A program made the translations under genes and the position numbers. From NCBI GenBank assembly GCA_045606425.1, contig JAZURV010000004.1, forward strand, positions 120,987-184,986: a stretch of 64,000 bases of DNA. The letters run 5' to 3'. Under the pieces are notes generated by a model, which searched no databases, was not told where the DNA came from, and was given only the letters and a program-made list of their open reading frames with translations. This DNA is from Candidatus Enterousia sp. Its GTDB lineage: Bacteria > Pseudomonadota > Alphaproteobacteria > Rs-D84. Positions 33,531-45,066 of this stretch are shown here, one piece after another; the first letter of the stretch is position 1, and each line of letters begins with the position of its first letter.

Positions 33531-33560
33531 AAAAACGCCGCTCAACCGAGCGGTGTTTTT
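33531..33560. terminator. Bidirectional rho-independent terminator
   Basis: aaaaacgccgctcaaccgagcggtgttttt between convergent secB and paralog-A ORF. Confidence 0.7.
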
Positions 33561-33933
33561 ATTCGCAATATTTATTTTTATAAACTTCTATTGCTGTATC
33601 AAACCAAAAATATGGTTGATTTCGTGCACATAATTCCCGAACAAAAGAATCATAAATATCTGGTCTAAAAACCAAAAAATCACAAAAATACGCATTTACC
33701 AAATTCCATTCTGACGCAAACAGAAAAAGTTCGTCTGTGAATCCGTCCGCATAATCTTCCCTGTCCATAAAAAAGGTATCGCCATCTGTAAAGAAATAAA
33801 TCGTACCGCGCCTGTCCAGTGCACCAGATTGTGATATCATAAAAAACAACATTTTTGATGAAATGTCTTTTCTTACCGCACCTGGTGTTGTTCTTTGGAA
33901 ATTGACGCGCTTTATACAAATTGAATTTTCCAT
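33559..33933 (-). CDS. Hypothetical 124-aa protein, paralog A (about 80% identical to the 37197..37571 product)
   Basis: The probable start is the internal Met (MENSICIK) with an aggga SD. The frame is conserved between the two diverged copies. No recognised domain. Confidence 0.6.
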   Translation of the reverse strand: MENSICIKRVNFQRTTPGAVRKDISSKMLFFMISQSGALDRRGTIYFFTDGDTFFMDREDYADGFTDELFLFASEWNLVNAYFCDFLVFRPDIYDSFVRELCARNQPYFWFDTAIEVYKNKYCE

Positions 33934-34150
33934 ATTATCCCTGTCTTTTGTAAAAAACAAAGACCACTAAAAAATAAGTCGTCGGGGGTTAGAACAGCAT
34001 AGTAGTGAATGCTCCACCAAAGTGGCACCCCGCCCATAAGTCAGGGATATGGCACAAAAGCACCATAAACAGATTACGATGCTTATTGCACCGCACTACT
34101 ACGGGATGTTCTAAATCCCTAACCCAATTCCCATTGGATTCATGTATTAT
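33934..34150 (-). promoter_or_regulatory. Structured RNA leader/attenuator element, copy A
   Basis: About 200 nt upstream of paralog A. The 5' end carries the dyad CCAATTCCCATTGG (34124-34137). A multi-stem core includes P1 (GUAGUAGUG/CACUACUAU) and a CCAC-UUUG-GUGG hairpin. A weak terminator-like hairpin with U-run lies immediately before the start codon. It is homologous to copy B (36960..37196) with compensatory P1 changes. Confidence 0.6.
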
Positions 34151-34154
34151 TATA

Positions 34155-34205
34155 ATTGTGATTATTCAAAAAAGCAACTAAAAACGGCGCATCTGCGCCG
34201 TTCAA
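34155..34205 (-). terminator. Rho-independent terminator downstream of yebC
   Basis: Minus-strand hairpin aacggcgcagatgcgccgtt followed by tttagttgctttttt. Confidence 0.55.
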
Positions 34206-34309
34206 AAAACAAATTAGAATGATAAAGATGCGAAACCGTTGGTAAGCGTAGTGTAGTAGACCTACATGAGCGCACCAACGGCAAGCAGATTTATTATTAT
34301 AATTTGTTT

Positions 34310-35026
34310 TTACGCTGCGGCAGTGAATACTTTCTGAACATCATCATTCGCATCCAGCGCGTCAACCAATCTTTCAATTTTGGCATACGCTTCATCGTCT
34401 AAATCCATCGGCATATTTGGAACCCATGTGATTTCTGCGTTTTCTGGTTCACCCAATTTATCAGCCAATGCCTTTTGAATATTCATGAAATTATCTGGTT
34501 TTGTTGTGATTATGAAACCTTCTTCTGACGATTCCAGGTTATCTGCGTCAACTTCCATAACCAATTCCATCATTTCGTCTTCGCTTTTACCAATGGACGC
34601 CGGATACATAATCTGACCAACATGTGAAAACATGAAAACAACAGAACCTTCTTCGCCCATATTGCCACCGTTTTTGGCAAAAATATTACGAATTTCTGGC
34701 ACTGTACGGCGTGGATTATCGGTCAAGGCTTCTACAATAACAGGAACCGCGTTTGGGCCATAACCTTCATAACGCACTGCAACAAAGTTATCAGTATTTG
34801 CACCCGACGCCTTTTCAATTGCGCGTTTAATGTTATCGTTCGGCATAGACGCCTTGCGTGCCTGCAAAATTGCCAAACGCAATCTTGGGTTATTATCAGG
34901 ATTTTTATCACCCAATTTTGCCGCCATAGTTATTTCACGCGCCAGTTTAGTAAACAAACCACTGCGTGCCGCATCAACCAATCCTTTTTTGTGTTGGATG
35001 TTGTGCCATTTACTGTGTCCACTCAT
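34310..35026 (-). CDS. yebC: YebC/PmpR family DNA-binding transcriptional regulator
   Basis: 238 aa; MSGHSKWHNIQHKKG N-terminal signature. Confidence 0.9.
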   Translation of the reverse strand: MSGHSKWHNIQHKKGLVDAARSGLFTKLAREITMAAKLGDKNPDNNPRLRLAILQARKASMPNDNIKRAIEKASGANTDNFVAVRYEGYGPNAVPVIVEALTDNPRRTVPEIRNIFAKNGGNMGEEGSVVFMFSHVGQIMYPASIGKSEDEMMELVMEVDADNLESSEEGFIITTKPDNFMNIQKALADKLGEPENAEITWVPNMPMDLDDEAYAKIERLVDALDANDDVQKVFTAAA

Positions 35027-35076
35027 ATTTGACCTTTTGATTTAATTATATTAAAATTACACCAAAAGGATAACAA

Positions 35077-35646
35077 ATGATTGGAAAATTGCAAGGCGTA
35101 ATTGACTATATCGGTTCTGATTTCGTTATTTTGATGGCTGGACCCGTTGGGTACAAGGTCTATACGCCGGAAATCTTGACATTAAAGTCAACTGTCGCGC
35201 TTTGGATTGAAACGATTGTGCGCGAAGATTCTATAAGGTTATTTGGGTTTTCAACCATTGCCGGACAAAACCTGTTTAATCAACTGACCACCGTGTCTGG
35301 CGTTGGGCCAAAGGTTGCCATGGCGATTATGGGAACAATAAAAACAGATACACTTATGTCGGCGATTGCAACCGGCGACGCAAAAACAATCGCAACTGCC
35401 CCGGGGGTCGGGAAAAAAGTTGCTGAAAAAATCATAGTTGAATTAAAGAATAAAATGGGTGGTGCTGCGTTTGATTTTGGCACCGACAACAGCGGCGCCC
35501 TGCCCGATTTATTGGCGGCACTGGAATCCCTTGGTTATCGCCGTATGGATATTATCGACATGGCACAAAAATTGGTATCCAATAATCCAGACGCAAATGT
35601 TGCAAAACTGGTACCATTGGCATTAAAAGAAATAAGCGGTAAATAA
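35077..35646 (+). CDS. ruvA: Holliday junction DNA helicase RuvA
   Basis: 189 aa; MIGKLQG start and HhH motifs. Confidence 0.9.
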   Translation: MIGKLQGVIDYIGSDFVILMAGPVGYKVYTPEILTLKSTVALWIETIVREDSIRLFGFSTIAGQNLFNQLTTVSGVGPKVAMAIMGTIKTDTLMSAIATGDAKTIATAPGVGKKVAEKIIVELKNKMGGAAFDFGTDNSGALPDLLAALESLGYRRMDIIDMAQKLVSNNPDANVAKLVPLALKEISGK

Positions 35647-35649
35647 AAT

Positions 35650-36942
35650 ATGAATAACGATACAATATTTGCTTTATCAAGCGCACATGGAAAATCTGGT
35701 GTTGCAGTTATACGCATCAGCGGAAATGATTTGTCTGGTTTATTTAAACGCATTATAAACAAACCAGAATTTGAATCGCGTCACGCCTATTTCACAAATT
35801 TTCGCGATGATAACGGCAATTTAATCGACCAATGTATTGCTATATTTTTTGCCGCGCCAAATTCTTTTACTGGCGAAGATATTATTGAAATTCATTCACA
35901 TGGCGCACCGGCTGTTATAGATAAAATATTTGATTTTTTGCGCGGGCTTGGCGCACGAATTGCACAGCGCGGTGAATTTTCACGACGCGCATTTTATAAC
36001 AACAAAATGGATTTAACAGATGTCGATGGTTTAATCGCCCTGCTTGATGCACAAACAGATAAACAACGCGAATCCGCCCTTAAATCTTTAACAGGTGGCG
36101 ATTCAATCATGTATAAAAATTGGCGCGATAAAATGATTGAAATATCTGCCTATGCGGCGGCAATCCTGGATTATGACGCAGATGATTTACCAAAAGATAT
36201 CGATAAAAAAATATTACTGGAAACACAAAATTTATTAAAAGAAATCACAGAATCGACATCTAATTATCGCGCGTCGCGTGCAATTCAAAATGGGTTTAAT
36301 ATCGTTCTGGTTGGTGAAACAAATGTTGGAAAATCGTCCATCTTTAATAAATTGGTTGGTTCAAATCGTGCGATAGTTTCCGATATTGCCGGAACCACAC
36401 GTGATGTAGTGTCCCAACAAATAGATATTGACGGATATCTGGTAAACCTGTCCGATACGGCGGGAATCCGCGAAGCAACAGATGCTGTTGAAAAAATTGG
36501 CATTGAACGCACTCATGAAGAAACAAGAAATGCAGATTTAATTATCCATGTTTATAACGAATTGCCAAAAACAATAAACGAAAATGAAATCATCGTTATA
36601 AACAAAAGCGATTTATTAAAAAACAAATCAAACAAAAATGTAATTTATACATCGGCGAAAAATGGCGCGGGTTTTGATGAATTATTAAACGCAATTAAAA
36701 CAAAAATGCATGAATTGATGGGCGGGGCTGAATCTAAAATCACAATCAACGAACGCACATACGAATTATTAAATGAAACCATTTCCGAACTAAGAAATGC
36801 AATAAATAAATACGACGGCAATTATGATATCTTTGCAGAACATGTCCGTCGTGCAGGTGATGCAATTGGAAAGATTTTGGGGGTAATAACAACGAATGAA
36901 ATCGCCGATGCTACATTTTCAAGATTGTGTCTGGGGAAATAA
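35650..36942 (+). CDS. mnmE: tRNA modification GTPase MnmE (TrmE)
   Basis: 430 aa; G domain GETNVGKSS and C-terminal CLGK. Confidence 0.92.
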   Translation: MNNDTIFALSSAHGKSGVAVIRISGNDLSGLFKRIINKPEFESRHAYFTNFRDDNGNLIDQCIAIFFAAPNSFTGEDIIEIHSHGAPAVIDKIFDFLRGLGARIAQRGEFSRRAFYNNKMDLTDVDGLIALLDAQTDKQRESALKSLTGGDSIMYKNWRDKMIEISAYAAAILDYDADDLPKDIDKKILLETQNLLKEITESTSNYRASRAIQNGFNIVLVGETNVGKSSIFNKLVGSNRAIVSDIAGTTRDVVSQQIDIDGYLVNLSDTAGIREATDAVEKIGIERTHEETRNADLIIHVYNELPKTINENEIIVINKSDLLKNKSNKNVIYTSAKNGAGFDELLNAIKTKMHELMGGAESKITINERTYELLNETISELRNAINKYDGNYDIFAEHVRRAGDAIGKILGVITTNEIADATFSRLCLGK

Positions 36943-36959
36943 ATACATTTGCTTTTCTA

Positions 36960-37196
36960 AATAATCCAATTTATAATAATATATGAATCCAATGGGAATT
37001 GGGTTTGGGATTTAGAACATCTCTCTATCTAGGCGGTGCATAAAGCATCGTAATCCGCTTATGGTGCTTTTGTGCCATATTCCCTGACTTATGGTCGGGG
37101 TGCCACTTCGGTGGAGCATGCCTAGATATGCTGTTCTAACCCCCGACCGCTTGTTTTTTTCAGCGGTCTTTGTTTTTTACAAAAGACAGGGATAAT
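36960..37196 (+). promoter_or_regulatory. Structured RNA leader/attenuator element, copy B
   Basis: Dyad CCAATGGGAATTGG (36989-37002). P1 is AUCUAGGC (37027-37034) pairing with GCCUAGAU (37120-37127), enclosing sub-hairpins including CCAC-UUCG-GUGG. A terminator hairpin gaccgc..gcggtc (37145-37168) plus T-run ends 16 nt before the ATG at 37197. Confidence 0.65.
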
Positions 37197-37571
37197 ATGG
37201 AAAATTCAATTTGTATAAAGGGCGTCAATTTCCAAAGAACAACACCAGGTGCGGTAAGAAACGATATTTCATCAAAAATGTTGTTTTTTATGATATCACA
37301 ATCTGGTGCACTGGACAGGCGCGGTACGATTTATTTCTTTACGCCAACCGGCGCTTACTTTATGGAACTGGAAGATTATACAGCCGAATTCAAAGATGAA
37401 CTTTTTATATTCACATCAGAATGGAATTTGGTAAATGCATATTTTTGTGATTTTTTGATTATAAGACCAGATGTTTATGATTCTTTTATTCACGAATTAT
37501 GTGCAAAAAACATTCGTGATTTTTGGTTTGATACGGCAATAGAAATTTATCGAAATAAATATTGCGAATAA
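37197..37571 (+). CDS. Hypothetical 124-aa protein, paralog B
   Basis: MENSICIKGVNFQRTTPG...; about 80% identical to paralog A. It is oriented away from the central yebC-ruvA-mnmE segment, mirroring copy A. Confidence 0.6.
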   Translation: MENSICIKGVNFQRTTPGAVRNDISSKMLFFMISQSGALDRRGTIYFFTPTGAYFMELEDYTAEFKDELFIFTSEWNLVNAYFCDFLIIRPDVYDSFIHELCAKNIRDFWFDTAIEIYRNKYCE

Positions 37572-37600
37572 AAAAACGCCCAAACGGGCGTTTCTTTATT
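37571..37600. terminator. Bidirectional rho-independent terminator
   Basis: aaaaaacgcccaaacgggcgtttctttatt between paralog B and the convergent fadD-like gene 1. Confidence 0.7.
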
Positions 37601-39176
37601 CTTTTCTGTCTGGATATTTACCATTTATCAAATTCTTGCGCACTTCGTGGTGTTTAATCTTTTGAGTGCTGGTCATCGGCAAATCTTCCGTTGTCATCGC
37701 AAAATGGGTCACCCATTTATAGGATGCAACTTTTTTATTTTGTTCTGCGATTTCTTTGGAAAGTTTATCCATTGTCATATCTTTGTCGACACTGAAAACC
37801 CCATATGAAACAGTCTTGTCCCCAACCTTGTGTTCAAAGACAGCAACATTTTTAACGCCTTCGATTTCCAGATAAAGTGCTTCCAATTCATCAGGATAAA
37901 CATTTTTACCGCTGTCCAAAACAATTACTTGTTTTTTACGGCCGGCAAAGTGCAATTCGCCATTTTTATCCATGTACATCATGTCCCCAGTATTAAACCA
38001 ACCGTCTTGGTCAAATACAGTCGCATTGACTTCATCATTATTCAGATATCCATTAAACACCTGATGTCCACGCAACCATAAAACACCAACGCCATTTTCA
38101 TCTTTGTCGCGAATTTCGCATTCATTATTAGATGTTGGCGCCCCAACTGAATAAGCCAATCTTTTATTTGTTGGTTTGGAAATACAGATTGGTCCAACAG
38201 TTTCAGTCAAACCGTATCCCTGAATAAATGCCAGACCAAGCGATTCATAGAAATTTTCAACCTCTGGCTTGGTCGCGGCACCACCTGCAATCAGCAACTT
38301 TGCGCGTCCACCAAAAACATTTAACAAAGGTTCCTGAACTTTACGGACAAAGAAATCCAATCCCATATCTTTCAATGTTTTTTGGTTTCTTAAAATAAAT
38401 GATGCGACACGCCATTTATTTTGTTCTTTCATTGTTGTTATAATCTTGTTACGGAACAATTCCCAAACACGTGGAACGGCAGGTATAACATGCGGTTGGA
38501 ATTTCTTGAAATCGTCCAAGATATATTTTGGATTTATTGTTGGCTGCAAAACGAGTGACGCACCATAATGAATTGTTGCCAAAATACCGATTGCAAAACC
38601 GAATATATGATACAGTGGCAAAAATCCATACATAACATCACCAGAATGGAAATATTCAGACATATCTTCCAATGAATTTGCGCATTCTGTTAAATTAAAG
38701 TGTGTCAGTGGCACAACCTTTGGTGTTCCGGTTGACCCAGATGTAAACGACAGCGTCGCAACATCTGTGGATTCAGACGGATATGGGCGCAAATCATAAT
38801 CTATGTCGCCATCTTTTTTTGTTATGTCATAGAATTTAAATTTGTCTGTTTTATAAAAGAACGATGGTTCTGCGCACACAAATTTGCACCCCACGATTTC
38901 ACACATTTTATCATATTCGATTGGTGTTAAATTTGTATCCAGCATCAAAACCGTTCCACCCAAATACCATACCGCAAACAAAGTCAATGGGAACTGGGGC
39001 AAATTATGCGATAAAACACCAACAATATCGCCATGTTTGATACCCATTTTATTTAATGTTGCTGCACGGGCGCGAACCTGGTCTATAAATTGTGCATAGG
39101 TCACATTTTCACGAACCAGAAACAAATTTTCCGGCCATTGGTTCACTGCGTTTTCTAATTTTTGATACATATTCAT
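37596..39176 (-). CDS. AMP-dependent synthetase/ligase (long-chain acyl-CoA/acyl-ACP synthetase, FadD-like), copy 1
   Basis: AMP-binding motifs TSGSTGTPKVV, YGLTE, GWFNTGD, GRKKQVIVLDSGKNVYPDELE and C-terminal LPMTSTQK. The probable start is MNMYQKL at 39176; the ORF-track N-terminus extends 12 aa further to 39212. Confidence 0.8.
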   Translation of the reverse strand: MNMYQKLENAVNQWPENLFLVRENVTYAQFIDQVRARAATLNKMGIKHGDIVGVLSHNLPQFPLTLFAVWYLGGTVLMLDTNLTPIEYDKMCEIVGCKFVCAEPSFFYKTDKFKFYDITKKDGDIDYDLRPYPSESTDVATLSFTSGSTGTPKVVPLTHFNLTECANSLEDMSEYFHSGDVMYGFLPLYHIFGFAIGILATIHYGASLVLQPTINPKYILDDFKKFQPHVIPAVPRVWELFRNKIITTMKEQNKWRVASFILRNQKTLKDMGLDFFVRKVQEPLLNVFGGRAKLLIAGGAATKPEVENFYESLGLAFIQGYGLTETVGPICISKPTNKRLAYSVGAPTSNNECEIRDKDENGVGVLWLRGHQVFNGYLNNDEVNATVFDQDGWFNTGDMMYMDKNGELHFAGRKKQVIVLDSGKNVYPDELEALYLEIEGVKNVAVFEHKVGDKTVSYGVFSVDKDMTMDKLSKEIAEQNKKVASYKWVTHFAMTTEDLPMTSTQKIKHHEVRKNLINGKYPDRKE

Positions 39177-39330
39177 TTTAATATCCTTTTTGTTTACTTT
39201 TTCGCTCGACACACAATAAAAAAAATCAAAAAAATCTTGTGAACTTCAATTTTTTAAGCTTTTTTTAATTGTGTGTTCTCGTATTCGCTCGCTTGGCACA
39301 ATTTGTGCCGGCTGCGCGGATAACGCAACG

Positions 39331-39362
39331 ATTGCGGAAGCAGTATTCACTGCTTCCGCAAT
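39331..39362. repeat. Perfect 13-bp-stem palindrome between fadD-like copies 2 and 1
   Basis: attgcggaagcag-tattca-ctgcttccgcaat lies 7 nt after the fadD-like-2 stop. There is no downstream U-run on the minus strand. Nearby palindromes are ggcacaatttgtgcc (39293-39308) and acacacaatt/aattgtgtgt (39199-39208 / 39268-39277). Confidence 0.5.
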
Positions 39363-39368
39363 CTGCTT

Positions 39369-40949
39369 TTATTCATGTCTGTTTGTATATTTACCGTCTA
39401 TCAACCATTGACGAACAACATGATGTTTAATTTTTTGAGTACTGGTCACCGGTAAATCGTCGGTTGTCATCGCAAAATGTGTCACCCATTTATAGGACGC
39501 AACTTTTTTATTTTTTTCTGCGACTGCGGCGGCCAATTTATCCATTGTCATACCTTCTTCGACACTGAATACGCCGTATGCGACGGTTTTGTCATTTACT
39601 TCATGTTCAAAAACCGCAACACTTTTTACACCATCGATTTCGATAAACAAGGCTTCCAATTCATCAGGATAAACATTTTTACCACTGTCCAAAACAATTA
39701 CTTGTTTTTTACGACCAGCAAAATGCAATTCGCCGTTTTTATCCTGCCATACTAAATCACCAGTACAGAACCAGCCATCTTTGTCAAACGATTCTTTATT
39801 CGCAGCATCATTATTTGCGTACCCGCCAAAGATTTGATTGCCACGAACCCACAGCATACCAATACCATCTTCGTCTTGGTTGCGAATTTGGATTTCAGTA
39901 TCACCCATCGGCGCACCAAATGCGTATGGCACACGTTTTTTCAGCGGGCGCGAACAACAGATTGGCCCCACAGTTTCGGTCATACCATAACCCTGAACGA
40001 ATGCCATTCCCAGTTGAGTATAGAATTTTTCAACCTCTGGTTTGGTCGCGGCACCACCTGCAACCAACAGACGCGCGCGTCCACCAAAAATTGCGCGAAT
40101 TTGATTCAAAACTTTATCAACCAGTTTTGACATACCCATTGCACGCAACAATTTTTGATTATTCATTACAAACGATACCAATCCCCATTTCTTTTTTGCC
40201 TTGATACCATCGATAATTTTCTTGCGGAAAATTTCCCACAACTTTGGCACCGCAGGAATAACCTGGGGTTTATATTGTGCAAAATCCGCCATAATTGCAT
40301 TTGGATTTATTGTTGATTGCAACAAAATTCCCATACCAAAATGCAACGGTGCCAAAAATCCAACTGCGAATCCAAACACATGGTACAATGGTAAAAAAGC
40401 ATAGAACATTTCACCAGGGCGCAACCACTGATTCAAATATTCCAAATTATCAGAACAAGAAACCAGATTAAAGTGTGTCAACGGCACAACCTTTGGCGTT
40501 CCAGTTGACCCCGATGTAAACGACAATGTTGCAATATCGCTGTCTTTCAATGGGTATGGCTTTAAAGATTCATCGTTTTTTTCGTCTTTCGTTTCAATAT
40601 CAAAAAACTTAAAGCCCTTTGCATCATAAAAGAAAGATTTTTCTGCACATACAATTTTACAACCTGTTATTTCGGTCATATTATCATATTCTGCAGAGGT
40701 TAAATTCGTATCCAACAACAAAACCGTTCCGCCCAGGTACCATATAGCGAACAAAGTTATTGGAAACTGTGGCAAATTATGCGCCAACAAACCAACAACA
40801 TCGCCCGGTTTTACACCCGCATCACGCAAAGTTGTCGCACGTGCCTGAACCAATTTCACTAATTCTTTAAATGTGACATTTTCACGAACCAAAAACACAG
40901 TTTCTGGGTTTCTTTCCACATTTTTTTCTAATAACTGATACATATTCAT
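39369..40949 (-). CDS. AMP-dependent synthetase/ligase (FadD-like), copy 2
   Basis: 526 aa with the same motif set (TSGSTGTPKVV, YGMTE, GWFCTGD, LPVTSTQK). Its ATG overlaps the TAA of copy 3 by 1 nt (TAATG). Confidence 0.8.
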   Translation of the reverse strand: MNMYQLLEKNVERNPETVFLVRENVTFKELVKLVQARATTLRDAGVKPGDVVGLLAHNLPQFPITLFAIWYLGGTVLLLDTNLTSAEYDNMTEITGCKIVCAEKSFFYDAKGFKFFDIETKDEKNDESLKPYPLKDSDIATLSFTSGSTGTPKVVPLTHFNLVSCSDNLEYLNQWLRPGEMFYAFLPLYHVFGFAVGFLAPLHFGMGILLQSTINPNAIMADFAQYKPQVIPAVPKLWEIFRKKIIDGIKAKKKWGLVSFVMNNQKLLRAMGMSKLVDKVLNQIRAIFGGRARLLVAGGAATKPEVEKFYTQLGMAFVQGYGMTETVGPICCSRPLKKRVPYAFGAPMGDTEIQIRNQDEDGIGMLWVRGNQIFGGYANNDAANKESFDKDGWFCTGDLVWQDKNGELHFAGRKKQVIVLDSGKNVYPDELEALFIEIDGVKSVAVFEHEVNDKTVAYGVFSVEEGMTMDKLAAAVAEKNKKVASYKWVTHFAMTTDDLPVTSTQKIKHHVVRQWLIDGKYTNRHE

Positions 40950-42547
40950 TATAAACGCTCCCGTAATTTACTGGTATTTTCTGGATATTTGCCATCGATA
41001 AGATTCTGGCGCACTTCATGATGTTTAACCTTTTGTGTACTGGTCATTGGCAAATCATCAGTAGTCATCGCAAAATGGGTCACCCATTTATACGGCGCAA
41101 CCTTACGATTAGCCAGCGCAACTTGCGCCGCCAGTTTCAAAAAACTCATCCCCTTGTTCACCTGGAATACAGCATATGTGACGGTTTTATTTTTTTCTTT
41201 GTGTTCAAAAACTGCGACATTTTTTACGCCATCTATTTCCATGAACAATGCTTCCAATTCATCCGGATAAACATTTTTACCACTGTCCAGAACGATAACT
41301 TGTTTTTTGCGTCCTGCAAAATGATACTGTTTATTTTTATCCAGATAGACTAAATCACCGGTATTAAACCAACCGTCTTTGTCGAATGATTCAGAATTTG
41401 CCTCTGCATTATTCAAATATCCATTAAAGACATTTGGTCCGCGCACCCACAGTGTTCCAATACCTTTTTCATTGGCATCACGAATTGTGCATTCTGAACA
41501 ACCAATTGGTGTTCCAAACGCGAACGGCACACGATGTTTCGACGGACGCGAACAACAGAATGGCCCAACCGTTTCAGTCATACCATATCCCTGAACAAAG
41601 GTGATTCCCAATGATTCATAGAATTTTTCAACCTCTGGTTTTGTCGCGGCGCCGCCCGCAATCATCAAATTCACACGCCCACCAAAGATGTCACGCAACG
41701 GTTTTTGTACCTTTTTAACCAGTTTACCCAACCCAATTGCACGCAAAAACTTTTGCCGACGCAATACGAAAGACACAAACCACCACATATGTTTTTCTTT
41801 GACCCCGCTGATGATTTTATTACGGAACACTTCGTAAAGGCGCGGCACCGCCGGAATACAGTGTGGTTTATAAACCCTAAAATCTTCCAATATATTTTTT
41901 GGATTTACGGTTGGCTGTAATAAAATTCCCATGTGGAAATACATAGGTGCCAAAATACCACCTGCAAAACCGAATATATGATACAGCGGCAAAAAACCAT
42001 ACATTATTTCGTTTTTATGAATCCATTGTCCCATATCTGCGTAATAATCAGACGAACTTTTCAGATTTCCATGCGTCAGTGGCACAACCTTTGGATTGCC
42101 AGTCGAACCTGATGTAAAGGACAGCGTTGCAATATCATCAGATTTCAAATCTGCAGGTTTCACATTGGCATCGGCTGCATCATCAGTGCTTTGTATATCA
42201 AAGAACTTAAATCCCCTGGCCTTGTAAAAGAATGATTTTTCGGCGCACACGAATTTGCACCCCACCCTTTTGGTCATATTATCATATTCGAACGGTGTTA
42301 AATTTGTATCCAACAACAAAACCGTACCACCCAAATACCATATCGCGAAAAGTGTCAATGGAAATTCTGGAATATTATGCGCCAACAAACCAACGACATC
42401 GCCCTGCTTTACCCCGGCGTTATGCAAAGTCGTCGCGCGTGCATGAATCAAATCCAGCGCCATTTTAAATGTGATTTTTTCGCGTACCAAAAACAAAGCA
42501 TCTGGCGATTCTTTCGCCACTTGCTTGAACACTTGATACATATTCAT
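40949..42547 (-). CDS. AMP-dependent synthetase/ligase (FadD-like), copy 3
   Basis: 532 aa with the same conserved motifs (TSGSTGNPKVV, YGMTE, GWFNTGD, LPMTSTQK). Confidence 0.8.
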   Translation of the reverse strand: MNMYQVFKQVAKESPDALFLVREKITFKMALDLIHARATTLHNAGVKQGDVVGLLAHNIPEFPLTLFAIWYLGGTVLLLDTNLTPFEYDNMTKRVGCKFVCAEKSFFYKARGFKFFDIQSTDDAADANVKPADLKSDDIATLSFTSGSTGNPKVVPLTHGNLKSSSDYYADMGQWIHKNEIMYGFLPLYHIFGFAGGILAPMYFHMGILLQPTVNPKNILEDFRVYKPHCIPAVPRLYEVFRNKIISGVKEKHMWWFVSFVLRRQKFLRAIGLGKLVKKVQKPLRDIFGGRVNLMIAGGAATKPEVEKFYESLGITFVQGYGMTETVGPFCCSRPSKHRVPFAFGTPIGCSECTIRDANEKGIGTLWVRGPNVFNGYLNNAEANSESFDKDGWFNTGDLVYLDKNKQYHFAGRKKQVIVLDSGKNVYPDELEALFMEIDGVKNVAVFEHKEKNKTVTYAVFQVNKGMSFLKLAAQVALANRKVAPYKWVTHFAMTTDDLPMTSTQKVKHHEVRQNLIDGKYPENTSKLRERL

Positions 42548-43392: not shown

Positions 43393-44085
43393 TTATTCTG
43401 GTGCGTTAAAGGTCCAACCGGTAAAGATTTTTCCATTAATATGTTGGGCCTTTAGCGGTGTATGTATATCCCCGCCATAGGTGACGTTGCCGGCGTTGTT
43501 TGCGGTTATGTCCGCCGCATCAGCATGATCCCAAGTGATTGAAATAGTATTCGCAGTGCAAACCGACGAACCCGCAGGCGCAGAATACCCCGTCGCACAG
43601 GCACTTATACCCTGGTCGATGTTTTCGTTAAAACTATACGTTCCACCAACAGAATAACTATTCGCGGGGCATTGTGTGCACGCATCCACGTCGGCAGGCA
43701 AGTAATACCCGACTGAACAAGTATGTGTATTTGGGACAAATTCTGCCACCAGATTACCATTATAAAGTAAATCCCTGGAACAACCCTTTTCTACATTTTC
43801 GACAATAGGTAAAGTATAAACAATTCCTTGGTCAATATTTTGGTTAAATCTAAAATTTCCACCACTGCAAGTGTGTCCAGATAAACAAGATGTACACCCG
43901 TCAATATTTGCGGGCAAATAATAACCGGACGAACAATTATACAGCGTCGGTTCGAACAGAGCGGTCAGTGTTGCTGGGTTATAATCAAAAGAGCAACCGT
44001 TCGCGGTATTTTCTGAAAATATTTCAGCGTATGCAAAGTTTGCATATGATATAAAAACGCCCAAGATAAAAACTAATTTTTTCAT
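43393..44085 (-). CDS. Secreted Cys-rich protein with two ephrin-receptor-like (GCC2_GCC3-type) repeats
   Basis: Signal peptide; an internal duplication of a roughly 75-aa module, CSSGYYLPANIDGCTSCLSGHTCSGGNFRFNQNIDQGI and CSVGYYLPADVDACTQCPANSYSVGGTYSFNENIDQGI; C-terminal GKIFTGWTF. Confidence 0.55.
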   Translation of the reverse strand: MKKLVFILGVFISYANFAYAEIFSENTANGCSFDYNPATLTALFEPTLYNCSSGYYLPANIDGCTSCLSGHTCSGGNFRFNQNIDQGIVYTLPIVENVEKGCSRDLLYNGNLVAEFVPNTHTCSVGYYLPADVDACTQCPANSYSVGGTYSFNENIDQGISACATGYSAPAGSSVCTANTISITWDHADAADITANNAGNVTYGGDIHTPLKAQHINGKIFTGWTFNAPE

Positions 44086-44091
44086 CTTTTT

Positions 44092-44802
44092 TTATTCGGA
44101 CAAAGACCAACTTTCTTCCACCGGTTCCGCCAACGGGTAATAACAAGTGACTGGTTGACCGGCGGCATATCTTTCCGCCAACCACGTATTAAATTCTGTT
44201 TGATTTGCAAATCTGCTATCTGTGACATTAAATTGAATTGTATTATTTTCACTTGCACCTAAATAGAATGTGTTATTTTTGACCAGTCCCCATTTCTGAT
44301 AATTCGAATAATAATTGCAAATAGGGACATCTTGTTTTATTGAACGTTGAACATTGCTTGTTAAGGTCCCTGAGATACAATAAAAACTATCTGGGCCAAA
44401 CCAGTTTTCTCTCCAGCTTTCGTTTCCTTTTAGTATTAATACTCCGACACGACGTGTAATTTTTTCACTGGAAGGATTATATTCGTCAGCTACGAAATCT
44501 TCCCCACTGCCCAATGCGCGCAAAACAGTATCGCCCAGTTGATAAAATACTGGTTCTATGGGATTTGTCGGGGTTGGCGTCCCAGATTGTGACCAAGTGC
44601 CGGTTATAACACCATAATTCCATCCGACAAATGTATAACCGTATTTTGTTGGCGACGTTTGCGGAATTATCAGATTGCCACCTGATTCACAGGTGCTGGT
44701 TGAATATGTTGTGTCTCCTACTTTCCAATTTACATTTATTGTTTCGGCAAATACGATATTGCATATTAAAACCACACCAAAAAACACGAAAAACTTCTTC
44801 AT
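44092..44802 (-). CDS. Secreted protein with Listeria-Bacteroides-repeat-like motif
   Basis: The probable start is MKKFFVFFGVVLICNIVFA (ATG at 44800-44802; the ORF-track extension uses TTG). It contains YGYTFVGWNY. Confidence 0.55.
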   Translation of the reverse strand: MKKFFVFFGVVLICNIVFAETINVNWKVGDTTYSTSTCESGGNLIIPQTSPTKYGYTFVGWNYGVITGTWSQSGTPTPTNPIEPVFYQLGDTVLRALGSGEDFVADEYNPSSEKITRRVGVLILKGNESWRENWFGPDSFYCISGTLTSNVQRSIKQDVPICNYYSNYQKWGLVKNNTFYLGASENNTIQFNVTDSRFANQTEFNTWLAERYAAGQPVTCYYPLAEPVEESWSLSE

Positions 44803-44814
44803 CCTTGTCCCCCG

Positions 44815-45045
44815 TTTTTGCAAACAAAAAACCGCCAAAGGAATTTTAGGCGGTCGGGGAGTTGGTAAATCACATTGTTATAGATTTCCGCGCCTTACGG
44901 TAAGCGGCTCCCCAACCTTGTTAGTTAGGGATGATAACGGTGCAAAAAACACCAAAAATATCAAATTAACGATGCATTTGCACCGAACAATGTGGGCTAC
45001 CACAGCCCCGAACCCAATCCCTTGGATTCATTTGTATCATATCAT
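44815..45045 (-). promoter_or_regulatory. Structured RNA leader / sRNA-like element, copy C
   Basis: The 5' end AUGAAUCCAAGGGAUUGGGUUCGGGG (dyad CCAATCCCTTGG 45014-45025) and the 3' end CCCCGACCGCC-loop-GGCGGU + UUUUUGUUUG terminator (44831-44856) match elements A and B; the middle differs. It ends about 12 nt upstream of the 44092..44802 gene. Confidence 0.5.
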
Positions 45046-45066
45046 AAAAAAACTGTTTATACAAGA

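What the first reader, a model, noticed from the sequence alone, without database searches (positions are those of the whole stretch)
44815..45045. Third member of the RNA-element family, upstream of a secreted-protein gene
The minus-strand sequence between addB and the 44092..44802 gene starts with AUGAAUCCAAGGGAUUGGGUUCGGGG (dyad CCAATCCCTTGG) and ends with CCCCGACCGCC-loop-GGCGGU-UUUUUGUUUG. These match the 5' and 3' modules of elements A and B, but the roughly 130-nt core differs.

This suggests a modular family sharing a promoter/operator and a terminator module, or an independent sRNA about 200 nt long. At this locus a tmRNA was considered and rejected.
Basis: seen in the sequence. Interest (0 to 1): 0.6.

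Follow-up and report, generated by a model that had tools for sequence, protein, structure and literature searches.

The report
Two-state leader RNA before accessory genes
This is one copy of a previously undescribed, highly structured leader RNA, present in many copies in small-genome gut Alphaproteobacteria, that can fold in two mutually exclusive ways (one stops transcription, the other lets it run into the downstream gene) and whose second half resembles the poorly understood sRNA-Xcc1 of integron cassettes.

Summary
The sequence is there as described (minus strand, 45031→44822), and elements A (34143→33950, −) and B (36983→37180, +) are real paralogues. The claim that the core differs is wrong: all three align along their whole length and share one architecture.

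I collected about 150 non-identical homologues from gut and rumen Alphaproteobacteria (Ca. Enterousia, order Rs-D84, genomes under 1 Mb). Each copy has:
- a σ70-type promoter ending 4–5 nt before the RNA;
- a 190–250-nt structured RNA;
- an intrinsic terminator;
- a same-strand ORF starting within about 60 nt.

Covariation supports two incompatible folds.
- **Fold T** has a 5′ GNRA hairpin, a long rod, a four-way junction and the terminator. It is the thermodynamic and co-transcriptional default.
- **Fold A** is a three-way junction. Its 10-bp closing helix sequesters the terminator's 5′ arm.

The fold-A module gives recurrent sub-threshold Rfam hits to sRNA-Xcc1 (RF02221; 25–42 bits against a gathering score of 53).

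Downstream genes are heterogeneous: ORFans, surface and secreted proteins, DNA methyltransferases.

The best reading is a cis-acting, default-OFF transcription attenuator with an unknown effector. It is not a tmRNA, an operator or a generic repeat. I rate it a new variant of a known kind.

The parts
45036..45064 (-). Promoter of element C: -35 TTGTAT (45064-45059), 17-nt spacer, -10 TATGAT (45041-45036). The transcript is inferred to start near 45031-45029.
   Evidence: Read from the sequence. It scores 8/12 to consensus, just under the simple scanner's cut-off. Across the family, a -10 hexamer with at least 5/6 matches occurs in 128/150 copies and ends 4-5 nt before P0 in 114/150. TTG at -35 occurs in 83/150. 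The transcription start is inferred, not measured.
45010..45029 (-). P0: 5'-terminal hairpin GAAUCCAA-GGGA-UUGGGUUC with a GNRA tetraloop.
   Evidence: MFE folds. 92.9% of cells are paired, and 7 of 8 pairs show two-sided changes. The loop is GGGA in 115/136 copies.
45006..45015 (-). G1: G-rich strand GGGUUCGGGG. Its GGGG pairs with the CCCC of C2 (helix P1) in fold T.
   Evidence: MFE. The fourth base tracks C2 in some variants, GGGA:UCCC and GGGU:ACCC. Support is weaker than for the other helices.
44994..45009 (-). Pa: local hairpin GGGGCU-GUGGU-AGCCC. It competes with P1 and P2a, because its loop is the 5' strand of P2a.
   Evidence: Predicted in the nascent 5' domain of 123/135 members. 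Compensatory examples include GUGGCU/AGCCA and GGGACU/AGUCC. 78% of cells are paired on the sequence-based alignment. Support is moderate.
44986..45002 (-). 5' strands of the rod: P2a (UGGUAG, 45002-44997) and P2b (CACAUUGUU, 44994-44986).
   Evidence: MFE. These are among the strongest covariation signals of the family: top MI-APC pairs and 4-5 pair types per position.
44938..44985 (-). P3 hairpin CGGUGC-AAAU-GCAUCG (44985-44970) plus a lineage-specific insertion hairpin P3b (to 44938). In C, the MFE merges them into one long hairpin.
   Evidence: P3 is 97.5% paired, and 5 of 6 pairs show two-sided changes. P3b also covaries. Short-form members lack the insertion.
44923..44931 (-). C1: UCCCUAACU, the 5' strand of hairpin P4. 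It pairs with G2 and acts as an anti-antiterminator.
   Evidence: MFE. C1 changes in step with G2 in unconstrained metagenome copies, for example UUCCUGACC, UACCUGACU and CUCUGUCC.
44908..44917 (-). G2: GGUUGGGGAG. It pairs with C1 (P4, fold T) or with C2 (closing helix of the three-way junction, fold A).
   Evidence: RNAalifold picks G2:C2. The helix is 98-99% paired with compensatory changes at several positions.
44888..44907 (-). P5 hairpin CCGC...GCGG, present in both folds.
   Evidence: All 7 pairs show two-sided changes.
44867..44887 (-). P6 of fold A: AAAUC (44887-44883) pairs with GAUUU (44871-44867). Its loop and 3' arm overlap the 3' strands of P2b and P2a.
   Evidence: Fold of the isolated 3' module. 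P6 is 96.4% paired with UA:64, GC:8 and AU:2 at one position. It corresponds to hairpin 2 of the sRNA-Xcc1 model.
44863..44879 (-). 3' strands of the rod: P2b (AACAAUGUG, 44879-44871) and P2a (UUACCA, 44868-44863).
44852..44861 (-). C2: CUCCCCGACC. Its CCCC pairs with G1 (fold T). The whole strand pairs with G2 (fold A). Its GACC is also the start of the terminator stem.
44822..44855 (-). Intrinsic terminator: GACCGCC, a 12-nt loop, GGCGGUU, then the U-run UUUUUUGUUU.
   Evidence: MFE. The terminator forms in the full-length MFE of 115/136 members. The simple scanner misses it because the loop exceeds 8 nt.
44092..44813 (-). Downstream gene: SD-like GGGGGACAAGG (44813-44803), ATG at 44802, and a 236-aa protein with a signal-peptide-like N-terminus.
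   Evidence: There is a weak Flg_new (Listeria-Bacteroides repeat) match, E = 2.4e-4, below the Pfam cut-off.
33950..34143 (-). Paralogue A, upstream of an orphan 124-aa gene (33559-33933). Its G2, C2 and terminator are partly degenerate.
   Evidence: Model R1 does not find it at E<=0.01.
36983..37180 (+). Paralogue B, upstream of an orphan 124-aa gene (37197-37571).
   Evidence: R1 hit at 37092-37151, 36.2 bits.

Best explanation
Element C is a cis-acting 5' leader that works as a default-OFF transcription attenuator. It is transcribed from its own σ70-type promoter and can adopt two mutually exclusive folds.

**Fold T.** This fold has the 5' hairpin P0, a short helix P1 (G1:C2), a long rod (P2a and P2b), a four-way junction (P3, P4 = C1:G2, P5) and a free intrinsic terminator. 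RNA polymerase stops about 20-30 nt before the ribosome-binding site, and a roughly 200-nt RNA is released.

**Fold A.** The 3' half refolds into a three-way junction made of the closing helix G2:C2, P5 and P6. The 10-bp closing helix takes up the GACC that starts the terminator stem, so transcription runs into the downstream gene.

**What is shown.** Both folds are maintained by compensatory evolution. The promoter, the terminator and the ORF spacing are conserved. Fold T is the thermodynamic default.

**What is inferred.** The elements act in cis. Some unknown factor (small molecule, protein or RNA) shifts nascent transcripts to fold A. One possible route is blocking the 5' 'anti-junction' strands, after which C2 invades P4 using the two unpaired bases after GGGG as a toehold.

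The three-way junction is a distant relative of sRNA-Xcc1.
For: **Family and structure**
- About 150 distinct copies were found.
- Single-sequence folds have z = -6 to -7.
- Fold T: 85.6% of cells are paired against 76.5% in shuffles, with 386 two-sided-change cells against 140. No shuffle of 500 reaches these values, and slid controls fall to about 40%. An unbiased MI-APC scan ranks the rod pairs at the top.
- Fold A: RNAalifold itself selects G2:C2. The base after GGGG covaries with the base before CCCC (AU 32, UA 15, UG 2), and the search pattern did not fix that second base.
- In metagenome copies ascertained only by P0 and G1, G2:C2 shows these variants: GGUCGGGAAG:CUUCCCGACC, GGUCGGGUAU:AUACCCGACC, GGUCGGGGAU:AUCCCCGACC, GGCCGGGGCG:CGCCCCGGCC and GGACGGGG:CCCCGUCC.
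- On the model-based alignment of that set, the junction is 95.1% paired, with 159 two-sided-change cells against 32±7. No shuffle of 500 reaches this, and slid controls give 35-56%.

**Exclusivity**
- C2's GACC belongs both to the closing helix and to the terminator stem.
- P6 shares bases with the 3' strands of P2a and P2b.
- G2 pairs with C1 or with C2.

**Default state**
- The terminator forms in 115/136 full-length MFEs. Forcing G2:C2 costs +12.6±4.3 kcal/mol. For C the values are -85.2 against -70.7 kcal/mol.
- The nascent 5' domain leaves C1 free in 123/135 members.

**Cis context**
- A -10 hexamer with at least 5/6 matches occurs in 128/150 copies, ending 4-5 nt before P0 in 114/150.
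- An ORF starts within 60 nt of the U-run in 88% of copies. An SD-like motif is present in 112/142.
- The element sits upstream of orthologous genes in syntenic positions in different MAGs.

**Link to sRNA-Xcc1**
- Sub-threshold hits fall over the 3' module, on the element's strand, in 10 of 38 loci.
Against: - There is no expression data. Transcription start, termination and read-through are all inferred.
- No effector is identified.
- The downstream genes are heterogeneous, so they give no hint of a ligand, unlike classical riboswitches.
- Fold A is much less stable than fold T, even in transcripts truncated before the terminator's 3' arm, where only 4/136 choose G2:C2. A plausible kinetic route to fold A is therefore hypothetical.
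- The fold-A alignment (A7) was fitted to the model's structure, which inflates pairing somewhat.
- Phylogenetic relatedness was not corrected for; no R-scape analysis was run.
- The rod and the closing helix could conceivably coexist as a strained pseudoknot. The terminator overlap would still hold in that case.
- The terminated roughly 200-nt RNA could also have a function in trans.
Confidence: 0.62

Rival explanations
1. It is a stand-alone, trans-acting sRNA of about 200 nt, as sRNA-Xcc1 is described to be. The downstream genes are just neighbours, or are expressed by incidental read-through.
For: The element has its own strong promoter and a strong terminator, so the terminated RNA should be the main product in the default fold. 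The related sRNA-Xcc1 is detected as a discrete RNA of about 90-100 nt by Northern blot and RACE (PMC2996969). A 5'-terminal hairpin is typical of stable RNAs.
Against: - 144/152 copies are followed by a same-strand ORF. In 88% of copies with a measurable U-run-to-ORF distance (n = 142), the ORF starts within 60 nt of the U-run, with an SD-like motif and no space for a promoter.
- A conserved helix that specifically disables the terminator has no role in a pure sRNA gene.
- There are tens of diverged copies per small genome.
- sRNA-Xcc1 itself sits directly upstream of genes: symE in integron cassettes, and an ORF6N protein in APSE phage (bioRxiv 10.1101/2025.06.18.660453; 10.1101/2020.03.17.996009).
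Confidence: 0.15
2. It is a true small-molecule riboswitch. The Xcc1-like three-way junction is the aptamer, possibly for a global signal such as a nucleotide second messenger. Ligand binding stabilises fold A and switches genes on.
For: - The whole junction (P5 with its UAUACAAC/GAAAG loop, P6, junction strand) is conserved between this family and sRNA-Xcc1, not just the closing helix.
- The geometry is the classical ON-switch arrangement, with the aptamer's closing-helix 3' strand overlapping the terminator's 5' arm.
- Many copies sit upstream of surface and secreted proteins. From my own knowledge, c-di-GMP riboswitch regulons look like this.
- A diadenylate cyclase gene lies in related loci.
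Against: - No ligand is suggested by the gene context.
- A and B lack the P5 internal loop.
- Few conserved unpaired nucleotides remain once both folds are accounted for.
- Kinetically, the competing 5' strands are transcribed before the aptamer.
Confidence: 0.2
3. It is a constitutive attenuator or insulator with no signal. It is a portable promoter plus leaky terminator cassette that sets a low, fixed expression level for accessory, possibly costly, genes. The alternative fold only tunes the leakiness.
For: The downstream genes are heterogeneous and largely ORFan or mobile-type. The related sRNA-Xcc1 is found in integron cassettes, transposons, plasmids and phages (literature). The terminator fold is strongly favoured.
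Against: An elaborate 5' domain, with P0, Pa, the rod strands and C1, each covarying with partners in the 3' module, is hard to justify without switching. Multi-partner constraint on four strands is typical of regulated attenuators.
Confidence: 0.12
4. It is a DNA-level element: an operator dyad, a MITE- or REP-type intergenic repeat, or a recombination site.
For: The element occurs in multiple copies per genome. There is a dyad at the 5' end. A and B lie in inverted orientation around yebC-ruvA-mnmE.
Against: - Many conserved G-U pairs would be A-C mismatches on the other strand.
- Copies are diverged, with compensatory changes, rather than near-identical.
- The orientation always matches the downstream gene.
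- Copies sit at syntenic positions in different species.
- No terminal inverted repeats or target duplications were seen.
Confidence: 0.03

Closest known systems
sRNA-Xcc1 (Rfam RF02221; Xanthomonas campestris, integron cassettes, plasmids, phages)
   Same: - The three-way junction has a G/C-rich closing helix: GgCcGGggG/CccCCgGcC in Xcc1, GGUCGGGGAG/CUCCCCGACC here.
- The first hairpin carries an AUACAA...GGAA internal loop, which matches P5 here.
- There is a second short hairpin, which matches P6 here.
- A C-rich tail and U-run follow.
- Both occur in several copies per genome and directly upstream of accessory genes.
   Different: - All hits are below the gathering score: 25-42 bits against 53. 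C itself gives no hit at E<=10.
- Xcc1 is about 88 nt and has no 5' domain. Its closing helix is followed directly by the U-run, so there the junction would be the terminator.
- Here a roughly 110-150-nt 5' domain competes with the junction, and a separate terminator hairpin overlaps C2, so the junction is the antiterminator.
- The host clade differs: Rs-D84 Alphaproteobacteria versus mainly Xanthomonadaceae and mobile elements.
- Xcc1 is described as trans-acting. No mechanism is known.
Transcriptional ON-riboswitches with terminator/antiterminator platforms (e.g. the pbuE adenine riboswitch; from my own knowledge)
   Same: A promoter-proximal structured RNA in which the 3' strand of a junction-closing helix overlaps the 5' arm of an intrinsic terminator. 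The terminator fold is more stable, and the decision must be made co-transcriptionally.
   Different: No ligand is known and the regulon is not coherent. An extra upstream 'anti-aptamer' domain pairs with three parts of the junction. No Rfam riboswitch family matches.
Classical four-strand attenuators (trp-type leaders, T-box leaders; from my own knowledge)
   Same: Alternative pairings among consecutive strands (C1:G2, G2:C2, C2:terminator arm) decide termination. There is an anti-antiterminator logic.
   Different: There is no conserved leader peptide: the first codon varies among AUG, UUG, GUG, ACG, UCG, CAG, AAG and CCG. There is no T-box or specifier features, and no Rfam T-box hit.
Multi-copy leaders in front of surface-protein genes (c-di-GMP-I/GEMM riboswitches; from my own knowledge)
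   Same: Many copies per genome sit upstream of diverse secreted or surface proteins. A GNRA tetraloop is a conserved feature.
   Different: No sequence or structure similarity, and no Rfam hit. The ligand is unknown.

Membership tests
sRNA-Xcc1 (RF02221) | Covariance-model score at or above Rfam's gathering threshold (53 bits). | tested here: not met
   C gives no hit at E<=10. There is nothing in the window at gathering thresholds. The best family members score 42.0, 39.7, 38.5 and 37.5 bits. 10 of 38 loci have sub-threshold hits.
sRNA-Xcc1 (RF02221) | Three-way junction with a GGNCGGGG/CCCCGNCC closing helix enclosing two hairpins. | tested here: met
   Shown by the alignment to the model, the folds of isolated modules and covariation. 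C's own module scores 49.3 bits with my model R1.
sRNA-Xcc1 (RF02221) | AUACAA...GGAA internal loop in hairpin 1. | tested here: inconclusive
   It is present in many members as UAUACAAC...GAAAG. It is absent from C, which has CCGCUUACCGUAAGGCGCGG, and from A and B, which have GCCAC-UUCG-GUGG.
sRNA-Xcc1 (RF02221) | Roughly 88-nt transcript starting at the closing helix and ending at a U-run right after it. | tested here: not met
   Here the promoter lies 110-150 nt upstream of G2, and a separate terminator hairpin follows C2. One minimal variant without the 5' domain exists, L054.
Riboswitch (generic) | Conserved structured domain plus an expression platform with mutually exclusive terminator and antiterminator. 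| tested here: met
Riboswitch (generic) | Direct, specific binding of a small molecule. | not testable with these tools
   This needs in-line probing, ITC or transcription assays.
Riboswitch (generic) | Gene associations that point to one pathway or ligand. | tested here: not met
   A Pfam census of 124 downstream proteins gave mostly no hit. The hits were Flg_new 9, Chlam_PMP 5, EcoRI_methylase 4, N6_N4_Mtase 3, OMP_b-brl 2 and HTH_3 2, plus single glycosyltransferase and thymidylate kinase matches among others.
tmRNA | tRNA-like domain plus tag-peptide reading frame, detected by ARAGORN or Rfam. | tested here: not met
   ARAGORN finds only tRNA-Gly and tRNA-Tyr in the window. Rfam finds no tmRNA.
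Leader-peptide attenuator | Conserved short ORF in the leader. | tested here: not met
   The AUG at the 5' end of C is not conserved as a start codon, and the frames end at different places.
MITE/REP-type intergenic repeat | Near-identical copies, terminal inverted repeats, and insertion without regard to gene orientation. | tested here: not met
   Copies share 51-77% column identity and carry compensatory changes. Orientation is fixed relative to the downstream ORF. Copies occupy syntenic positions across MAGs.

The most novel reading that the evidence does not exclude
The family is a new signal-responsive riboregulator class. Its Xcc1-type three-way junction is the sensor for a small molecule or a dedicated factor. 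With tens of copies in genomes under 1 Mb, it forms the main regulon for surface and secreted proteins and DNA methyltransferases in Rs-D84 / Ca. Enterousia gut symbionts.

By extension, sRNA-Xcc1 in integron cassettes, plasmids and phages would be a cis-acting gate on cassette genes such as symE, rather than a trans-acting sRNA.
Probability: 0.3. Interest if true: 0.85.

Novelty: new variant of a known kind. Interest (0 to 1): 0.68.

Why it matters
- **A major control element in a little-known clade.** Rs-D84 / Ca. Enterousia are uncultured, reduced-genome members of human and livestock gut microbiota. They have few recognisable regulators and many unknown envelope proteins (PMC12306168). A single leader RNA placed before dozens of such genes would be a main control point of their surface repertoire. 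It also offers a handle for finding the signal they respond to.
- **A clean case of a two-state RNA.** Both states are visible in covariation, which is rare outside characterised riboswitches.
- **A testable re-reading of sRNA-Xcc1.** The family links to sRNA-Xcc1, whose mechanism has been unresolved since 2010-2011. The data suggest that Xcc1-type RNAs are cis-acting gates on accessory genes in integrons and phages.
- **An annotation gap.** Current annotation, including Rfam 15, misses all of these copies.

Tried and rejected
- **Rfam at gathering thresholds.** Only two tRNAs were found in the window. A permissive scan of C gave only noise.
- **tmRNA.** ARAGORN was negative.
- **Exact or near-exact search for the 26-nt block in the window.** It is unique. 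The paralogues were found only through short BLAST seeds and reading the sequence.
- **Leader peptide.** The 5' AUG opens a 21-codon frame in C, but the start is not conserved.
- **Extended P1.** I considered GGU of G1 pairing with ACC of C2 as an alternative antiterminator, at the expense of P0. The G1 position varies (G, C, A, U) without compensation in C2, so I dropped this.
- **Kissing between the P0 loop and the terminator loop.** This was suggested by C's constrained fold. Family-wide, the duplex energy is only marginally better than with permuted partners (-1.65 against -1.40 kcal/mol), so I dropped this.
- **P0 loop GGGA pairing with the UCCC of C1.** There is no covariation where the loop is GGAA.
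- **The orphan 124-aa protein as a candidate trans-factor.** The AlphaFold model is confident (pLDDT 86.5), but there is no PDB fold match (best E = 0.2), no Pfam hit and no clue to function.
- **Bridging to genuine sRNA-Xcc1 loci.** BLAST of the most Xcc1-like module against plasmids and phages found nothing. The original Chen et al. 2011 paper is not held.
- **Source record of the window.** A look-up through the identical protein found nothing on record.
- **Simple promoter and terminator scanner.** It misses C's promoter (8/12) and terminator (12-nt loop), and the A and B promoters (-35 scores 3/6). Promoter evidence therefore rests on family-wide conservation.
Full report
**1. The observation**

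It begins AUGAAUCCAAGGGAUUGGGUUCGGGG at 45031-45006. It ends CCCCGACCGCC, a 12-nt loop, GGCGGUU, then UUUUUUGUUU at 44859-44822.

The 26-nt block is unique in the window at up to 3 mismatches. Short BLAST seeds led to the two other copies:
- A on the minus strand (34143→33950);
- B on the plus strand (36983→37180).

Contrary to the finding, the three do not share only their ends. They align end to end, with 77% mean column identity. They fold into the same architecture, with MFE z-scores of -6.2 to -7.2 against dinucleotide shuffles.

Rfam 15 finds nothing here at gathering thresholds. ARAGORN finds no tmRNA.

**2. A large family**

A and B each precede a 124-aa ORF with no Pfam match. Its homologues form a tiny family of 26 clusters from uncultured Alphaproteobacteria.

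DNA around those homologues shows the same RNA upstream, with real divergence. It often sits in syntenic positions: yebC-[RNA-ORF]-secB, mnmE-[RNA-ORF], efp-[RNA-ORF].

I then ran two collection scans.
- **Species-representative genomes.** The two-block pattern GGTYGGGGWGCC...CCCCGACCGC gave 117 loci. nhmmer sorted these into 64 distinct full-length elements plus chance hits in high-GC taxa. The elements come from MAGs labelled Alphaproteobacteria bacterium, Ca. Enterousia or 'Rickettsiales bacterium'.
- **Metagenomes.** A pattern anchored only on the 5' hairpin and the start of G1 gave 120 loci, containing 88 more distinct full-length elements.

Ca. Enterousia and the order Rs-D84 are gut bacteria with genomes of about 0.75-1.0 Mb (PMC12306168). 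Three copies in 64 kb therefore implies tens of copies per genome. That figure is an extrapolation.

**3. Anatomy**

*Promoter.* A -10 hexamer with at least 5/6 matches to TATAAT is present in 128/150 copies. It ends 4-5 nt before the first base of the 5' hairpin in 114/150. TTG at -35, with a 16-18-nt spacer, occurs in 83/150. For C the promoter is TTGTAT-17-TATGAT. This falls just below the simple scanner's cut-off.

*Downstream ORF.* A same-strand ORF starts within 60 nt of the U-run in 88% of copies. An SD-like motif is present in 112/142. The ORF must therefore be transcribed through the terminator.

*No leader peptide.* The first triplet of the RNA varies among AUG, UUG, GUG, ACG, UCG, CAG, AAG and CCG.

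**4. Fold T (terminator fold)**

Single-sequence MFEs and the 57-sequence alignment A4 give these helices:
- P0, a 5'-terminal hairpin whose loop is GGGA in 115/136 copies;
- P1 (the GGGG of G1 with the CCCC of C2);
- a rod, P2a plus P2b;
- a junction with P3 (plus the insertion P3b in some lineages), P4 (C1:G2) and P5;
- the terminator.

On A4 this structure is 85.6% paired, against 76.5% in column shuffles. It has 386 two-sided-change cells against 140. No shuffle of 500 reaches these values. Sliding the partners by 1-3 columns drops pairing to 37-50%.

P0, P2a, P2b, P3, P3b and P5 each show several pair types per position. An unbiased MI-APC scan ranks the rod pairs first.

P1 could not be tested on that set, because the search pattern fixed C2.

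**5. Fold A (antiterminator fold)**

The same MI scan showed that the base after GGGG in G2 covaries with the base before CCCC in C2, although the pattern did not fix that second base. RNAalifold on A4 chose the 10-bp helix GGUYGGGGWG:CW'CCCCRACC, with AU 32, UA 15 and UG 2 at that position.

The decisive test is the metagenome set, where C1, G2 and C2 were unconstrained. There G2 and C2 change together:

| G2 | C2 |
|---|---|
| GGUCGGGAAG | CUUCCCGACC |
| GGUCGGGUAU | AUACCCGACC |
| GGUCGGGGAU | AUCCCCGACC |
| GGCCGGGGCG | CGCCCCGGCC |
| GGACGGGG | CCCCGUCC |

C1 follows G2 in the core positions. It does not follow in the last two pairs, which are specific to G2:C2.

Folding the G2...C2 segment alone gives, in nearly every member, a three-way junction: the closing helix, P5 and a short hairpin P6. 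P6 appears as AAUCA:UGAUU, AGCAU:AUGCU, GGCA:UGCC or GUUAUU:AAUGAC.

I built a covariance model of this module (R1). It found the module in all metagenome elements, in C (49.3 bits) and in B (36.2 bits). On the resulting alignment, the junction is 95.1% paired against 86.2% in shuffles. It has 159 two-sided-change cells against 32±7, and no shuffle of 500 reaches this. Slid controls give 35-56%. This alignment is fitted to the model, which favours the structure somewhat. The raw variants do not depend on it.

**6. The two folds exclude each other**

- G2 pairs with C1 or with C2.
- P6 uses bases that belong to the 3' strands of P2b and P2a.
- C2's GACC is both the end of the closing helix and the start of the terminator stem.

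Fold A therefore disables the terminator.

Fold T is the default.
- The terminator forms in 115/136 full-length MFEs.
- Enforcing G2:C2 costs +12.6±4.3 kcal/mol. For C the values are -85.2 against -70.7.
- Transcripts truncated before the terminator's 3' arm still prefer fold T.
- The nascent 5' domain is predicted to fold as P0 + Pa + P3 with C1 free in 123/135 members. P4 and then the rod can therefore form as soon as their partners emerge.

Pa (GGGCU...AGCCC) has some compensatory support, but only 78% pairing on A4.

My inference is that a factor must redirect folding. One route is occluding the 5' strands, so that P6 forms and C2 invades P4 from the two unpaired bases after GGGG. That step is hypothesis.

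**7. Relation to known RNAs**

Permissive Rfam scans of 38 member loci returned one recurring non-tRNA family, sRNA-Xcc1 (RF02221). It hit 10 loci, always on the element's strand and over the 3' module, at 25-42 bits against a gathering score of 53.

The alignment shows three correspondences:
- the Xcc1 closing helix GgCcGGggG/CccCCgGcC matches G2:C2;
- its first hairpin, with AUACAA...GGAA, matches P5;
- its second hairpin matches P6.

sRNA-Xcc1 is an 88-nt RNA seen by Northern blot and RACE in X. campestris (PMC2996969). It lies upstream of symE in the most widespread Xanthomonas integron cassette. It lies upstream of an ORF6N gene in APSE phages. It occurs in seven copies, five of them tandem, in Xylella. 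It is described as trans-acting. I found no mechanistic study.

Membership is not met on score, and C itself gives no hit. I therefore call the family a distant relative, or an extended variant, rather than a member. In Xcc1 the closing helix is followed directly by the U-run. Here a separate terminator overlaps C2 and a large 5' domain has been added. One natural minimal copy without the 5' domain exists, L054.

**8. What it controls**

Of 124 distinct downstream proteins, most have no Pfam match. The hits are:

| Pfam family | Proteins |
|---|---|
| Flg_new (Listeria-Bacteroides repeat) | 9 |
| Chlam_PMP (Chlamydia PMP repeat) | 5 |
| EcoRI_methylase | 4 |
| N6_N4_Mtase | 3 |
| OMP_b-brl (outer-membrane beta-barrel) | 2 |
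| HTH_3 | 2 |

There are also single matches to glycosyltransferase, thymidylate kinase, acyltransferase, surface-antigen and opacity-porin families.

Many N-termini look like signal peptides or lipoprotein signals. This is an accessory, envelope-rich set with no metabolic theme, so it gives no clue to a ligand.

**9. Verdict**

The full unit, with promoter, runs from 45064 to 44822.

It is a cis-acting, two-state transcription attenuator of a family not present in Rfam, related in its 3' half to sRNA-Xcc1. The effector is unknown.

Alternatives:
- a purely trans-acting sRNA;
- a constitutive insulator;
- a DNA-level repeat.

These are less well supported, for the reasons given under the rival explanations.

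I could not obtain expression data, run R-scape, or compare the models formally with the RF02221 seed. These are the decisive next steps.

Noticed in passing
window 33559-33933 (-) and 37197-37571 (+): Two paralogous copies of an orphan 124-aa protein, each behind a copy of the leader. The family has only 26 clusters in 5.8 billion proteins, all from uncultured Alphaproteobacteria. It has no Pfam hit. The AlphaFold model is confident (pLDDT 86.5) and has no PDB fold match. It is the single most frequent gene downstream of this leader.
   Followed up: partly
window 33950-37180: Elements A and B, with their orphan genes, lie in inverted orientation and flank yebC, ruvA and mnmE. In other MAGs the same gene-plus-leader unit sits next to yebC/secB, after mnmE or after efp. 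I did not test whether the inverted pair promotes inversion.
   Followed up: no
window 33950-34143 (-): Copy A looks partly degenerate. G2 is GGGCGGGG, C2 is CCCCGACGAC, the terminator stem has a central mismatch, and the 3'-module model does not detect it at E<=0.01. The downstream ORF is nevertheless intact.
   Followed up: partly
window 37596-42547 (-): Three tandem paralogous AMP-binding (acyl/aryl-CoA ligase-like) genes of 526-538 aa at 1.6-1.8-kb spacing, with 70-85% DNA identity in blocks.
   Followed up: no
window 43393-44085 (-): A second signal-peptide protein gene follows directly (6-nt gap) after the gene downstream of element C. The leader therefore probably controls a two-gene operon of secreted, Cys-rich or repeat proteins.
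   Followed up: no
L054:4120-4255 (+): A natural minimal variant. It has an AT-rich promoter-like stretch, a poor C1, then the three-way-junction module and terminator, with no P0, rod or P3 domain. It sits upstream of a signal-peptide gene. It resembles the stand-alone sRNA-Xcc1 layout.
   Followed up: partly
L195:1387-1529 (both strands): A sub-threshold Rfam match to WsnRNA46 (Wolbachia sRNA 46; 45 and 37 bits against a gathering score of 65.3) lies immediately upstream of a leader copy. It matches on both strands, which suggests a palindromic region.
   Followed up: no
Family-wide; P5 of e.g. L114:6284-6370 (-): Many copies carry a conserved asymmetric internal loop in P5, UAUACAAC on one side and GAAAG on the other, sometimes with an inner GGG/CCC hairpin. 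sRNA-Xcc1 shares it, but window copies A, B and C lack it. It could be a tertiary-contact or protein-binding motif, for example a receptor for the P0 GNRA loop.
   Followed up: no
L001:1-660 and L010:116-514: A diadenylate cyclase (DAC) domain gene lies near dnaN in related MAGs, so these bacteria probably make c-di-AMP. This is relevant only as a candidate signal to test.
   Followed up: no
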